Position numbers: made by a program
In this document: piece by piece, positions 17,847 to 20,800 of the stretch
Position numbering within the stretch: the first letter of the stretch is position 1
Layout: each line of letters starts with the position of its first letter
NCBI RefSeq assembly: GCF_013315695.1
Contig: NZ_CP054353.1
Length of the DNA: 64,000 nucleotides
Direction: 5' to 3' (one strand)
Source: Escherichia coli
Lineage (GTDB): Bacteria; Pseudomonadota; Gammaproteobacteria; Enterobacterales; Enterobacteriaceae

Positions 17847-20800
17847 TCAGCTATTTAAGATAGGCACGAACCAGTTCAATAGTGTCGTCAACGGATTGGC
17901 TGACTTCGCGGCTGTAGCAGTCATTTCGGTCAAACGTTTCCCGGATATGGCTTTCAAGCACTTCTGCCATCAGCCCGTTAGCCGCGCCCCGAACGGCAGC
18001 GATCTGTTGGAGTATGGCACGGCATTCGGCATCACTCTCCAGCGACCGTTCCAGAGCATCAATCTGCCCCCGAATACGACGAACTCGAGTAAGGACCTTT
18101 TTCTTCTCTTCCGGAGTACTGGGCATTTCGCACCTCATCATCTGCACGCAATATACTATAGGGGGGTATGCTATATGTCAATGCATACTCCCCTATAGTA
18201 TATAACACTGGAGAATAAAATTTATCCGGTGAATGTAGTCGGATAACAAAAAGGAAAGAGGGGCCTAATCGACAGGGAAGGCCGCCCCGGATAGCGGGCG
18301 GCAGAAGGAATTAGAATTTCCAGGTCAGATGGGCTGCAAGTTGCAGACCGTTATAATCATCGGTTGGGGTGTCGTACCACACTTTACCTGCCGTCAGCCC
18401 GAGATTAAGTTGCTCAGTCAGCGGTTGAATACGTTGCAAACTGACGCTCTTCATGCTGCCGTAGCGTGTTTCTGGCGTCCAGTCATAGGTGTAAGCGCCT
18501 GTTCCGCGGCTTAGCCATAGTTGCGTATAACCAGTGCCGCGCGGGTCATTCAGACGCACGGAAATCATATTGCTGTAACTACCACCTGCATCGCTGGAGT
18601 CATAATGGGTATAGCGGTAGCTGGAGATCACCGGGCCAGTATAGAGTGATACGCCGCCTTGCCAGGCATCGACTTCGACATCATCGTAATATTTAGTGTA
18701 GCGATAACCGGTCGTGAAAAGCGTTTTTGGCAACAGGGCCAGGTTAATATCCTGACGAAAATCCTGGCGGGCAAAGACCGGCGTATTATCCGCAAAGGCA
18801 ATACCCGTTCGGGTTGTCAGCCAGTTATTCCATTTGTACCAGACTGCACCCTGGCCGCGAGTGGCATTGAAATGTTCAGTTTCATAATCACGACGCCCCT
18901 GGGAAAGATTAAAAAGCAGCGTTGCGTTTTCAACTTTCGCCACCAGTTCAGCATACGCTAAATTACGGTTGCCATGATCGCCAGAATAATCGGTAAAATC
19001 GTAGCCCGCGGTAATGGAAGTTAACCCGGCATAAGCGGGCAATGTGCTAAAAATTGCTGCCGCTAATAACGTCCGTTTTATCATTTTAATCTCCTGTACG
19101 GATAAGTTCTTGTCGGAGTGAATAAGTTCCGGTAGGTAAATTACGTTCTACAATCACGCGCGGGCCAAGTTGCGTGTTCGGGGAAATAATTCGCCCAGGC
19201 AAAATAATAACTTGTACGCCAAGGCGTGAACGCTGTCCGATATAACAACCTAATTTATCGCATCCGGTAGCGATAATTCCCTCTGGAGTTCGAACAGACA
19301 CGGGCTGTTCATCCAGACGATGATTACTGGTACGTACTTGTGCGCCCAAATATGCCTGGTTTGCGACTACCGAGTCGGCAATAAAACATTGCGGACCAAT
19401 CGTTGCTTCCGCTTCAATAACCGCATTTTTAATTTCGGTGGCGAAACCAATTTTTACGCCATTGCTGATTATTGTGCCAGGACGAATAAACGCATAATTA
19501 CCTATCAGGCAGTTTGCGCCAATCACTACCGGACCCTGAATAACGGCACCGTGACAAATACGGGTATTCGCGCCGATAACAACTTCACCTGCAGTTTCAT
19601 CAATAATTACCTGGTCTGCAATCTGAATATTTTTCTCTTTAACATTAAGCTTCAGAAAGTTTTTCAGTTCCTGTGACAGAAGGTTGGGAATAAGCGGTTG
19701 ACGCTTCCACCAGTGCGGAATAGCGGGTGGGTTTGTCGCGCTGAGGTTCGCGTCCAGTAAAAAAGGCAATAAGTCCATAAATAATCCAGATGGCATAAGC
19801 TAATAATACATACACAACGGAAAGCGGCGCTAAAGGCACCAACAACCAGCAACGATGAAACCAGGCGCTAAAAGCACCAATAACACAAACTACGCCGACC
19901 CAGATAAGCGGAAACATTGCCAACACCACACTATGCGGCCCGGTGGTGATGAATTCATTAAACCAGGTAGTGAGATAAATCCCAACGCCATAAAGCACAA
20001 CCAACAGCATAGGAAATATACTGAAGATACCGAAGCGGCTAAATAAAAGTCTTTTATGCAGGCGCATACAGACCGCGTAGCCCACAATCCAACGCCGCCA
20101 GCGACGCCATTCCTCACGCGGGCTGTTGCATTCCTGTGGGTATACGATGCAGCGATTCGCCTGCCGAATACGATAGCCGTTTGCCACCAATGTCCAGGTG
20201 AGATCAAGGTCTTCGACTTTAGTACGATCAGAGAAACCGAACTTACGCAATACATCAGTACGGAACATCCCGCAGGCACCGCTGATAATAAACGGTGCGC
20301 CGCCCAGGAGCTGCTGTAGCGTGCGCTTCATAACAATCATCGGCAACTTTACGGTCGCGCGGATGTGCGGTAACAGACCCGCGCCTTTCAACGCAGTAGA
20401 GGGAATGCCGCCTACGGCATCAGCACCGCGCTCTATTTCTGCCAGCATATAGCCCATTCCGTCTTGATCGGGCGGAACATAGGTGTCGGCATCACTTAAA
20501 AAAACCTGGTCGCAGGTGGCGTAATTGAGGCCATTCATCAGCGCACCACCTTTACCGGTATTTTTTTGCGTGACGGCAATAAAGCGGTCGCCCCATTTGC
20601 GTTTGACTTCCGCCATGACCGCTTCGGTATTGTCCGTGGAGCCGTCGTTAACGCAAATTACCCGGCAAAAATAAGGGTTACGCAGCAGATTATCCAGTGA
20701 CTGCGCCAGACACGGGCCTTCGTTATAAGCAGGTATAATGGCGTCAATACAGCCTTTTTTTTGGCTGGGCTTACGCCTTAACGTACTCAGGAACCATAGC

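What the first reader, a model, noticed from the sequence alone, without database searches (positions are those of the whole stretch)
19086..19796. Intact yaiX whose 5' end overlaps the yaiP 3' end by ~150 bp
The hexapeptide-repeat acyltransferase ORF is continuous, whereas K-12 has an IS2 here as I recall. Its first ATG (19796) lies 152 bp inside yaiP (which ends at 19645) on the same strand, and there is no in-frame ATG just downstream of the yaiP stop. Either the genes really overlap or yaiX starts at a non-ATG codon.
Basis: seen in the sequence. Interest (0 to 1): 0.35.

Follow-up and report, generated by a model that had tools for sequence, protein, structure and literature searches.

The report
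yaiX start lies inside yaiP
The acyltransferase gene yaiX really does begin inside the preceding glycosyltransferase gene yaiP, most likely at the second ATG (134-base overlap), because enterobacteria lost the ancestral start and moved it 22 codons upstream; this is a gene-annotation correction, not a new kind of system.

Summary
There is a continuous 236-codon hexapeptide-repeat ORF at 19086-19796 (-), and it overlaps yaiP (19645-20841, -) by 152 nt. No in-frame ATG, GTG or TTG follows the yaiP stop until codon 91. K-12 does carry IS2 here.

Comparison of 37 related loci settles most of the question.
- The conserved N-terminus of the family ((M/V)-W-W) lies 68 nt upstream of the yaiP stop, so the overlap is real.
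- In other Proteobacteria, yaiX starts at ATG-TGG-TGG in a 14-nt overlap (ATGTGGTGGAATGA), with an AGG Shine-Dalgarno.
- In the enterobacterial-type loci that ATG, the AGG and the yaiP stop are all gone.
- An ATG 22 codons upstream (window 19778) is present in 15 of 15 such loci.
- yaiP synonymous variation is lowest exactly there: 0.145 against a 0.61 median, the lowest of 362 windows.
- The first ATG (19796) is not conserved.

The likely product is therefore 230 aa with a 134-nt overlap. RefSeq's CTG and GTG starts (193, 197 and 174 aa) cut off conserved sequence.

The gene and the operon are already known. What is new is the relocation of the start codon and the correction of the annotation. 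Interest is low to moderate. The start has not been shown experimentally.

The parts
19086..19796 (-). yaiX open reading frame as read by the first stage (236 codons from the first ATG).
19086..19778 (-). Proposed yaiX coding sequence: 230 aa from the conserved ATG (Met7 of the ORF). It encodes a left-handed beta-helix acyltransferase.
   Evidence: The ATG is present in 15 of 15 enterobacterial-type loci. yaiP synonymous variation is lowest exactly here. The mRNA context is unstructured and has the best, though weak, anti-SD pairing among the candidates.
19645..20841 (-). yaiP, a family-2 glycosyltransferase with C-terminal membrane segments and a conserved TGREPxRDKPTRY motif.
   Evidence: PF00535 98 bits. 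Tail alignment.
19645..19778 (-). The 134-nt region read in two frames: the yaiP frame and yaiX in +1.
19752..19778 (-). Codons for the conserved YaiX N-terminal peptide M-D-L-L-P-F-L-L-D. They overlap yaiP codons Y-G-L-I-A-F-F-T-G.
   Evidence: Synonymous-difference fraction is 0.145 against a 0.61 median, the lowest of 362 windows. TAT/CAT differ in 0 of 37 pairs and GGA in 0 of 55. YaiP L/F/I/P changes are silent or conservative in the yaiX frame.
19713..19751 (-). Variable linker of YaiX (residues 16-28 of the ORF), lying over the invariant YaiP motif REPQRDKPTRY. The ancestral start position is here, now CAC at 19713-19715.
   Evidence: yaiP synonymous sites vary here (0.49) and the yaiX-frame residues are not conserved. 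Other Proteobacteria have ATG or GTG at this codon.
19707..19712 (-). TGG TGG, the nearly invariant Trp-Trp at the N-terminus of the whole protein family.
   Evidence: W23 and W24 are at least 90% conserved in 61 sequences. AF2 pLDDT is about 79 here.
19645..19706 (-). Segment where the yaiX frame is under selection and the YaiP tail (ASTAYSQPSVTGTEKLSEA) is a poorly conserved extension created by loss of the ancestral TGA.
   Evidence: identity 0.50 (yaiX frame) against 0.25 (yaiP frame), with periodicity in the yaiX frame; the position of the yaiP stop varies between 17 and 83 nt after the first Trp codon.
19665..19667 (-). CTG used by RefSeq/PGAP as the yaiX start (193-aa product). Probably a mis-call.
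   Evidence: It lies downstream of conserved yaiX-frame sequence, and the AGGA is only 1 nt from the codon.
18311..19084 (-). yaiO, an outer-membrane beta-barrel gene. It starts 1 nt after the yaiX stop (TAAAATG) and has a good SD.
   Evidence: TIGR04390 184 bits; anti-SD pairing -7.4 kcal/mol.
20851..21522 (-). yaiS, a PIG-L family deacetylase and the first gene of the four-gene cluster. It is full length (223 aa) here.

Best explanation
yaiX is a real gene for a roughly 230-aa left-handed beta-helix acyltransferase. It is the third gene of the yaiS-yaiP-yaiX-yaiO cluster: PIG-L deacetylase, GT2 synthase, acyltransferase, outer-membrane barrel. The cluster probably encodes a synthase-type surface polysaccharide system.

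Translation most likely starts at ATG 19778, inside yaiP. The last 134 nt of yaiP are therefore read in two frames.

This arrangement is derived. The ancestral proteobacterial junction was a classic 14-nt coupling overlap (ATG-TGG-TGG-AAT-GA) with an AGG Shine-Dalgarno in the Arg codon of the YaiP KPTRY motif. In the enterobacterial-type lineage three things were lost: the ATG (now CAC in this window), the AGG (now CGN) and the yaiP TGA. As a result YaiP gained an unconstrained 19-aa tail in this window. YaiX initiation moved to an in-frame ATG 22 codons upstream, formed by the YaiP Tyr/His-Gly codons (xAT GGA). YaiX thereby gained a conserved M-D/E-L-L-P-F-L-L-D/E peptide and a variable linker in front of the old WW N-terminus.

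Shown: the sequence conservation, the frame-specific constraint and the loss of the old signals.

Inferred:
- that ribosomes actually initiate at 19778;
- that initiation is independent, at a weak GGA Shine-Dalgarno in an unstructured U-rich stretch, rather than re-initiation after termination;
- that expression is therefore low relative to YaiP;
- the polysaccharide function of the cluster.
For: The conserved N-terminus lies inside the overlap. Distant homologues of 204-206 aa begin MWW or VWW and align to residues 28-30 of the ORF.

The ancestral junction is seen in 11 non-enteric proteobacterial loci. yaiP ends ...RDKPTRYxxVV[EDGA]* and yaiX starts at ATG or GTG in a 14-nt overlap. There the lowest yaiP synonymous variation sits on AGG and ATGTGGTGG.

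Firmicutes have no overlap. They have a spacer of roughly 10-20 nt containing GGAGG.

In the enterobacterial-type loci:
- the ATG 22 codons (21-23 with single-codon indels in two loci) before WW is present in 15 of 15;
- a yaiX-frame stop lies one codon upstream of it in 4 lineages;
- the first ATG of the window is not conserved.

Dual-coding signature. The synonymous-difference fraction in yaiP is 0.145 in the 9 codons starting at the ATG-bearing codon, against a gene median of 0.61. That is the lowest of 362 windows. The same segment in non-enteric species is unremarkable: 0.59, rank 218 of 354.

YaiP substitutions L/F/I/P after the IYG sequence leave MDLL unchanged in the yaiX frame.

From WW to the yaiP stop, yaiX-frame identity is 0.50 against 0.25 for the yaiP frame, and differences peak at yaiX codon position 3.

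ATG 19778 sits in the least structured 1.9% of 50-nt windows, comparable to yaiP's own start. It has the best anti-SD pairing among the overlap candidates: -3.1 kcal/mol, against +0.9 for ATG 19796.

AF2 models the WW region and the following helix with pLDDT 79-88, as part of the fold.

Function. A repaired yaiX together with yaiP gives clumping in K-12 (PMC3531124).
Against: No experimental start-site data were found: no ribosome profiling and no N-terminal peptides.

The Shine-Dalgarno upstream of 19778 is weak (GGA). A 2026 paper reports no SD for either yaiX form (PMC13058169).

The first 20 residues of the 230-aa model are low confidence, pLDDT about 48.

Two divergent lineages (L026, L027) keep the ATG but not the LLPFLL sequence.

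Some enteric loci also have ATG or TTG 2-4 codons before WW (L008, L026, L027, L028), so a second, downstream initiation site cannot be excluded.

The codon at Leu44 is CTG, GTG, ATG or TTG in most enteric loci, so a shorter isoform is not excluded.

The sequences compared are related, so the window ranks are not formal probabilities.
Confidence: 0.75

Rival explanations
1. yaiX starts at the first ATG (19796), giving the 236-aa protein used by KEGG-based work. Alternatively, both ATGs are used in E. coli.
For: It is the first ATG after the in-frame stop. It is present in all five E. coli strains inspected and in E. whittamii. The 236-aa form was cloned and had a phenotype when overexpressed (PMC13058169).
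Against: It is not conserved outside Escherichia, and in several enteric loci the frame is closed upstream of the second ATG. Anti-SD pairing is +0.9 kcal/mol and the context is more structured than at 19778. The suppression of yaiP synonymous variation begins at the second ATG, not here; the codons upstream vary freely.
Confidence: 0.12
2. yaiX starts at a non-ATG codon near the end of yaiP: the RefSeq CTG at 19667 or 19679, or ATT at 19721. The product would be about 193-211 aa with only a short overlap.
For: RefSeq annotates CTG19667 (193 aa), CTG19679 (197 aa) or GTG at Val63 (174 aa). The Leu44 codon is CTG, GTG, ATG or TTG in 12 of 13 alignable enteric loci. The Ile26 position is ATT, ATA, ATG or TTG, and its AT is invariant in the Tyr-bearing loci (0 of 45 pairs; one locus has Leu/CTT).
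Against: The CTG and GTG starts remove the nearly invariant WW and residues that are conserved in the yaiX frame and confidently modelled. No usable SD is present: AGGA lies 1 nt from CTG19667, and the sequence upstream of ATT19721 is C-rich. ATT19721 sits in a structured, GC-rich context, at the 74th percentile. None of these starts explains the conserved ATG or the synonymous-site minimum at 19752-19778.
Confidence: 0.09
3. YaiX is made as a YaiP-YaiX fusion by +1 ribosomal frameshifting on the CC-UUU-UUU-A run at 19759-19767. No independent start would be needed.
For: yaiX is in the +1 frame of yaiP. A T6 run on which tRNA-Phe could re-pair in +1 is present in 12 of 15 enteric loci. The ancestral start, SD and stop are all lost.
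Against: The run is broken in E. whittamii (TTTGTT), and the large E. coli protein cluster reading MDLLPLLLD (P0001, 1737 members) cannot encode it either. It is also absent in L026 and L027. No slow or stop codon follows it. The invariant ATG, the GGA and the constrained codons upstream of the run are unexplained by frameshifting. A fusion would delete YaiP's most conserved C-terminal motif.
Confidence: 0.03
4. In enterobacteria yaiX has lost its start and is a decaying or barely expressed remnant. The upstream ORF extension would be accidental.
For: There is no strong SD (PMC13058169). The gene is disrupted by IS2 in K-12, and yaiS is truncated there too.
Against: YaiX is 50-80% identical across genera, with 44 invariant columns in 61 sequences. 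The frame is intact in the great majority of E. coli genomes. There is frame-specific constraint in the overlap. Repair of yaiX in K-12 gives a phenotype.
Confidence: 0.03

Closest known systems
E. coli yaiX (b4579/b0359 fragments in K-12; acetyltransferase or LbetaH domain-containing protein in RefSeq)
   Same: It is the same gene in the same tauA-yaiS-yaiP-yaiX-yaiO-frmR neighbourhood. A strain in RefSeq (MS 21-1) is 100% identical over the 1001-nt query.
   Different: It is intact here, whereas K-12 has IS2 inserted. Public starts disagree: 236, 230, 197, 193 and 174 aa. The evidence here favours 230 aa.
C-terminal acetyltransferase domain of the archaeal bifunctional sugar-1-phosphate nucleotidylyltransferase/acetyltransferase ST0452 (PDB 2ggo, 5z09) and of GlmU
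   Same: The left-handed beta-helix domain aligns to residues 241-398 of ST0452 (E about 1e-22) and to TIGR03992 positions 233-393.
   Different: YaiX has no nucleotidyltransferase domain. It scores far below the family cut-offs (130 against 292 bits). It has its own WW-containing N-terminal segment. The substrate is unknown.
Short translational-coupling overlaps between adjacent bacterial genes (ATGA, or longer overlaps such as ATGnnnnTGA)
   Same: The ancestral yaiP/yaiX junction is of this type: a 14-nt overlap with the SD inside the upstream gene.
   Different: The enterobacterial form has an 83-149 nt same-strand overlap with a dual-coding segment. That is too long for simple termination-reinitiation.
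pgaABCD / icaADBC synthase-dependent poly-N-acetylglucosamine systems
   Same: The gene content is similar: a GT2 membrane synthase (PgaC model is the best NCBIfam hit for YaiP), a deacetylase, an outer-membrane barrel, and a cell-aggregation phenotype.
   Different: YaiP is far below the PgaC cut-off (101 against 422 bits). The deacetylase is a cytoplasmic PIG-L type, not PgaB. There is an added acyltransferase. The barrel is YaiO, not PgaA. The polymer is unknown.

Membership tests
Hexapeptide-repeat (left-handed beta-helix) acyltransferase superfamily | Tandem hexapeptide repeats recognised by Pfam Hexapep or LbH models above the gathering score | tested here: met
   PF00132 scores 64.3 bits (cut-off 27). 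PF25084 scores 57.3 bits (cut-off 54).
Hexapeptide-repeat (left-handed beta-helix) acyltransferase superfamily | Predicted beta-helix fold | tested here: met
   AF2 gives mean pLDDT 87 and pTM 0.85, with regular short strands from residue 52 to 220.
Hexapeptide-repeat (left-handed beta-helix) acyltransferase superfamily | Acyl-CoA-dependent acyl transfer activity | not testable with these tools
   No biochemical data exist. PMC13058169 states that activity is untested.
Bifunctional GlmU / archaeal sugar-1-P nucleotidylyltransferase-acetyltransferase (TIGR03992, NF041173, TIGR01173) | Full-length match above the curated cut-off, including the N-terminal nucleotidyltransferase domain | tested here: not met
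   The scores are 130 bits against 292 and 121 against 600. Only model positions 228-400 are matched. PDB matches cover only residues 241-398 of ST0452.
Translationally coupled overlapping gene pair (short overlap) | Downstream start within a few nucleotides of the upstream stop, with the SD inside the upstream gene | tested here: not met
   In the window the nearest canonical start is 134 nt upstream of the yaiP stop, and the ancestral AGG/ATG/TGA are lost. The feature is met in the non-enteric relatives.
Long same-strand dual-coding overlap | Purifying selection detectable in both frames: suppressed synonymous variation in the upstream gene where the downstream frame is conserved | tested here: met
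   The value is 0.145 against a median of 0.61, the lowest of 362 windows, starting at the ATG. The control clade shows no such dip.
Programmed +1 ribosomal frameshift | Conserved slippery site followed by a slow or stop codon, and no independent start | tested here: not met
   The T6 run is not conserved (broken in L004, absent in L026 and L027, and implied broken in the P0001 cluster). It is followed by a common codon. A conserved ATG is present.
PgaC/IcaA poly-beta-1,6-GlcNAc synthase (for the partner gene yaiP) | Score above the equivalog cut-off of TIGR03937 | tested here: not met
   The score is 100.7 bits against 422.3. YaiP is a GT2 member: PF00535 scores 98 bits against 23.3.

The most novel reading that the evidence does not exclude
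The nine invariant codons at the new start (M-D/E-L-L-P-F-L-L-D/E) are more than a by-product of start relocation. They would encode a docking or membrane-anchoring peptide that tethers the soluble acyltransferase to the YaiP synthase, and the long overlap would set a fixed low YaiX:YaiP ratio. More radically, part of YaiX could be made as a YaiP-YaiX fusion by +1 slippage on the U-run.
Probability: 0.1. Interest if true: 0.5.

Novelty: new variant of a known kind. Interest (0 to 1): 0.3.

Why it matters
yaiX is now being studied experimentally. A 2026 paper links overexpression to multidrug tolerance and virulence, and earlier work links yaiX and yaiP to cell clumping. The construct used in that paper for the intact form (236 aa) and the RefSeq models (193, 197 and 174 aa) all probably have the wrong N-terminus.

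Knowing that the conserved start is ATG 19778 gives the correct protein to express. It also explains why no Shine-Dalgarno was found at the annotated starts.

More generally, this is a clean, datable example of how a short coupling overlap turns into a long dual-coding overlap. The upstream stop and the downstream start are lost, and expression is rescued by a pre-existing in-frame ATG. The position of lowest synonymous variation in the upstream gene tracks the start codon in each clade.

Tried and rejected
- Open frame by chance. The 51-codon open +1 stretch occurs in only 3.7% of synonymous resamplings. However, yaiP has another 145-codon open +1 stretch, so this argument was dropped as primary evidence.
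- RefSeq CTG starts. They were rejected because they remove conserved yaiX-frame sequence and lack a usable SD.
- ATT at 19721, the position of ATG in two enteric genera (one codon further upstream in a third). Its AT is invariant in enterics, but the context is GC-rich and structured with no SD. It is kept only as a minor possibility.
- +1 frameshift on the T6 run. It was rejected because the run is not conserved and the ATG and upstream codons are constrained.
- Literature search for start-site data on yaiX, yaiP and yaiO. It found no ribosome-profiling or proteomic evidence.
- Promoter and terminator scan. It gave no more hits than shuffled sequence, and nothing inside yaiP that would suggest a separate yaiX transcript.
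- A fold search was not run. The sequence-level PDB and Pfam matches already place the fold.
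Full report
**What is in the window**

On the minus strand there are four tightly packed genes:
- yaiS, 20851-21522, a PIG-L deacetylase;
- yaiP, 19645-20841, a family-2 glycosyltransferase of 398 aa;
- the hexapeptide-repeat ORF, 19086-19796;
- yaiO, 18311-19084, a YaiO outer-membrane barrel.

The ORF is continuous for 236 codons from ATG 19796 and shares 152 nt with yaiP in the +1 frame. It has only two Met codons, at 19796 and 19778. After the yaiP stop the first in-frame ATG, GTG or TTG is at codon 91, which would delete invariant residues. In K-12 an IS2 element splits the gene. In one search, 4456 of 5426 complete E. coli genomes cover at least 80% of a 1001-nt query spanning yaiX in one uninterrupted place.

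**Public annotation is inconsistent**

- RefSeq/PGAP starts the protein at CTG 19667 (193 aa), at CTG 19679 (197 aa), or at a GTG at Val63 in strains that have one (174 aa).
- Prodigal-type calls give 230 aa (P0001).
- A 2026 paper uses a 236-aa variant and remarks that no Shine-Dalgarno is visible (PMC13058169).

**Where the protein family begins**

A protein search and alignments show that distant homologues (about 50% identity, 204-206 aa) begin M-W-W or V-W-W. These residues align to residues 28-30 of the window ORF, and the two Trp are at least 90% conserved in 61 sequences. They lie at 19707-19712, which is 68 nt upstream of the yaiP stop. The conserved N-terminus is therefore inside yaiP, and every RefSeq start removes it. 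AlphaFold2 (mean pLDDT 87) models the WW region and the following helix at pLDDT 79-88. The 20 residues upstream are of low confidence.

**Evolution of the junction**

Twenty-two loci came from a species-representative genome collection, and eight more from contig look-ups.

- *Firmicutes.* The GT2 gene ends ...KVKRY*. yaiX starts a short spacer later, after GGAGG.
- *Non-enteric Proteobacteria* (11 loci: Pseudomonas, Stenotrophomonas, Sphingomonas, Acinetobacter and others). yaiP ends ...RDKPTRYxxVV[EDGA]* and yaiX starts ATG/GTG-TGG-TGG. This gives a 14-nt overlap, ATGTGGTGGAATGA, with AGG (the Arg codon of KPTRY) as the Shine-Dalgarno.
- *Enterobacterial-type loci* (15: this window, E. whittamii, Citrobacter, Superficieibacter, Salmonella, Enterobacter, a second cluster found in some E. 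coli, and others).
  - The old start codon is CAC, TAC, CCT, CGG, CGT and so on.
  - The Arg codon is CGN.
  - The TGA is gone.
  - YaiP therefore runs on for 2-24 further codons, and the stop lies 17-83 nt after the first Trp codon.

**Which frame is under selection**

From WW to 16 codons downstream, amino-acid identity among nine enteric loci is 0.50 in the yaiX frame and 0.25 in the yaiP frame. Nucleotide differences are 0.40, 0.29 and 0.56 at yaiX codon positions 1, 2 and 3. The YaiP extension is thus unconstrained read-through, and this stretch encodes YaiX.

**Where translation starts in the enteric form**

An ATG 22 codons (21 or 23 in two loci with single-codon indels) before WW is present in all 15 loci. 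In the window this is 19778. In four lineages a yaiX-frame stop lies one codon upstream of it. The window's first ATG (19796) has no counterpart in the close relatives outside Escherichia; some other enteric loci carry different upstream ATGs.

The ATG is formed by the YaiP codons Tyr/His-Gly (TAT or CAT, then GGA).

I measured how often identical YaiP residues use different codons among 11 thinned enteric sequences.

| Region of yaiP (enteric set) | Synonymous-difference fraction |
|---|---|
| Gene-wide | 0.61 |
| Nine codons beginning at the Tyr/His codon | 0.145 |
| Following eleven codons (REPQRDKPTRY) | 0.49 |

The 0.145 value is the lowest of 362 windows. Within it, TAT/CAT differ in 0 of 37 pairs and GGA in 0 of 55.

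As a control, the same calculation was run on nine non-enteric Proteobacteria. There the segment is unremarkable (0.59, rank 218 of 354). The minimum instead falls on KPTRY-HVVE, which is their own SD and start. The dip in synonymous variation therefore tracks the yaiX start in each clade.

Within the constrained nine codons, YaiP varies (L/F/I/P, then I/T/S/V/A) while the yaiX frame keeps M-D/E-L-L-P-F-L-L-D/E. In the following codons the yaiX residues vary freely while YaiP is invariant. That stretch is a linker.

**Initiation context**

| Feature | ATG 19778 | ATG 19796 |
|---|---|---|
| 50-nt MFE (kcal/mol) | -2.2 | -5.8 |
| Share of windows as weak or weaker | 1.9% | 18.6% |
| Best anti-SD pairing (kcal/mol) | -3.1 (UGGA, 6-nt spacing) | +0.9 |

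The low-structure percentile at 19778 is similar to yaiP's own start (0.9%). Its anti-SD pairing is weak. The ancestral position and ATT 19721 are GC-rich and structured. I infer independent, probably inefficient, initiation at 19778. This has not been shown experimentally.

**Rivals**

- Use of the first ATG, alone or together with the second, cannot be excluded in E. coli itself.
- Non-ATG starts are unlikely as the main start, for the reasons above. However, the Leu44 codon is CTG, GTG, ATG or TTG in most enteric loci, and an ATG or TTG sits 2-4 codons before WW in four loci. Minor isoforms are therefore possible.
- A +1 frameshift on the T6 run is disfavoured. The run is broken in E. whittamii, and the large E. 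coli protein cluster reading MDLLPLLLD cannot encode it either. It is also absent in L026 and L027. The constrained codons include the ATG and lie upstream of the run.
- Pseudogene decay is contradicted by strong conservation and by the clumping phenotype of repaired yaiX (PMC3531124).

**What it is like**

YaiX is a stand-alone relative of the C-terminal acetyltransferase domain of archaeal ST0452 and of GlmU. It is not a member of those bifunctional families, because it falls below their cut-offs and has no nucleotidyltransferase domain.

The operon resembles synthase-dependent exopolysaccharide systems such as pga. None of its proteins meets those family thresholds.

**Verdict**

The gene, the operon and the IS2 polymorphism are known, and long same-strand overlaps are a known phenomenon. 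Three points are new:
- the identification of the conserved start;
- the demonstration that the overlap is a derived, dual-coding replacement of a 14-nt coupling overlap;
- the conclusion that current RefSeq models, and the 236-aa model, are probably wrong at the N-terminus.

Interest is low to moderate.

Noticed in passing
window 20851-21522 (-); compare L003 1479-2160: yaiS is full length here (223 aa, ending 9 nt before yaiP), like its orthologues in other genera (207-221 aa). K-12 has CAG to TAG at codon 186, so the 185-aa K-12 YaiS is a nonsense-truncated allele. K-12 therefore carries two lesions in this operon: the yaiS amber codon and IS2 in yaiX. RefSeq flags the full-length allele as 'incomplete, missing C-terminus' in strains MS 21-1 and CB8671.
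   Followed up: partly
window about 20866-20985 (+), from L001/L003 2016-2135: The small protein gene ykiC is annotated antisense to the 3' end of yaiS. That is the part of yaiS left untranslated in K-12 by the amber codon. In strains with full-length yaiS it would be fully antisense to coding sequence.
   Followed up: no
window 19082-19088 (-): The yaiX stop and the yaiO start are 1 nt apart (TAAAATG). A good SD (ACAGGAG, -7.4 kcal/mol) lies inside the end of yaiX. This tight coupling contrasts with the weak signals at the yaiX start.
   Followed up: partly
window 21742-21771 (-): A near-consensus sigma-70 promoter-like site (TTGACA, 18 nt, TACAAT; 11 of 12 matches) lies about 220 nt upstream of yaiS. 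It is a candidate operon promoter. The overall number of promoter-like hits in the region is no higher than in shuffled sequence.
   Followed up: no
L033 (E. coli contig, P0050) and L009 (Ignatzschineria MAG): Some E. coli carry a second, divergent yaiS-yaiP-yaiX-yaiO cluster, about 60% identical in YaiX. One relative (P0051) is labelled as plasmid-borne. The cluster is nearly identical in its junction sequence to the one in an Ignatzschineria MAG from chicken gut. This suggests horizontal transfer or a binning artefact.
   Followed up: no
L014, L015 (Candidatus Kaiserbacteria / Paceibacterota MAGs): In these candidate-phyla-radiation genomes the yaiX homologue (MWW/VWW start) directly follows the PIG-L deacetylase gene, with no GT2 gene between them.
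   Followed up: no
window 19890-20279 (-): A 129-codon GTG ORF lies in the +1 frame inside yaiP, within a 145-codon open stretch. It has no homology support. I treated it as a chance open frame, and it shows that open +1 frames alone are weak evidence.
   Followed up: partly
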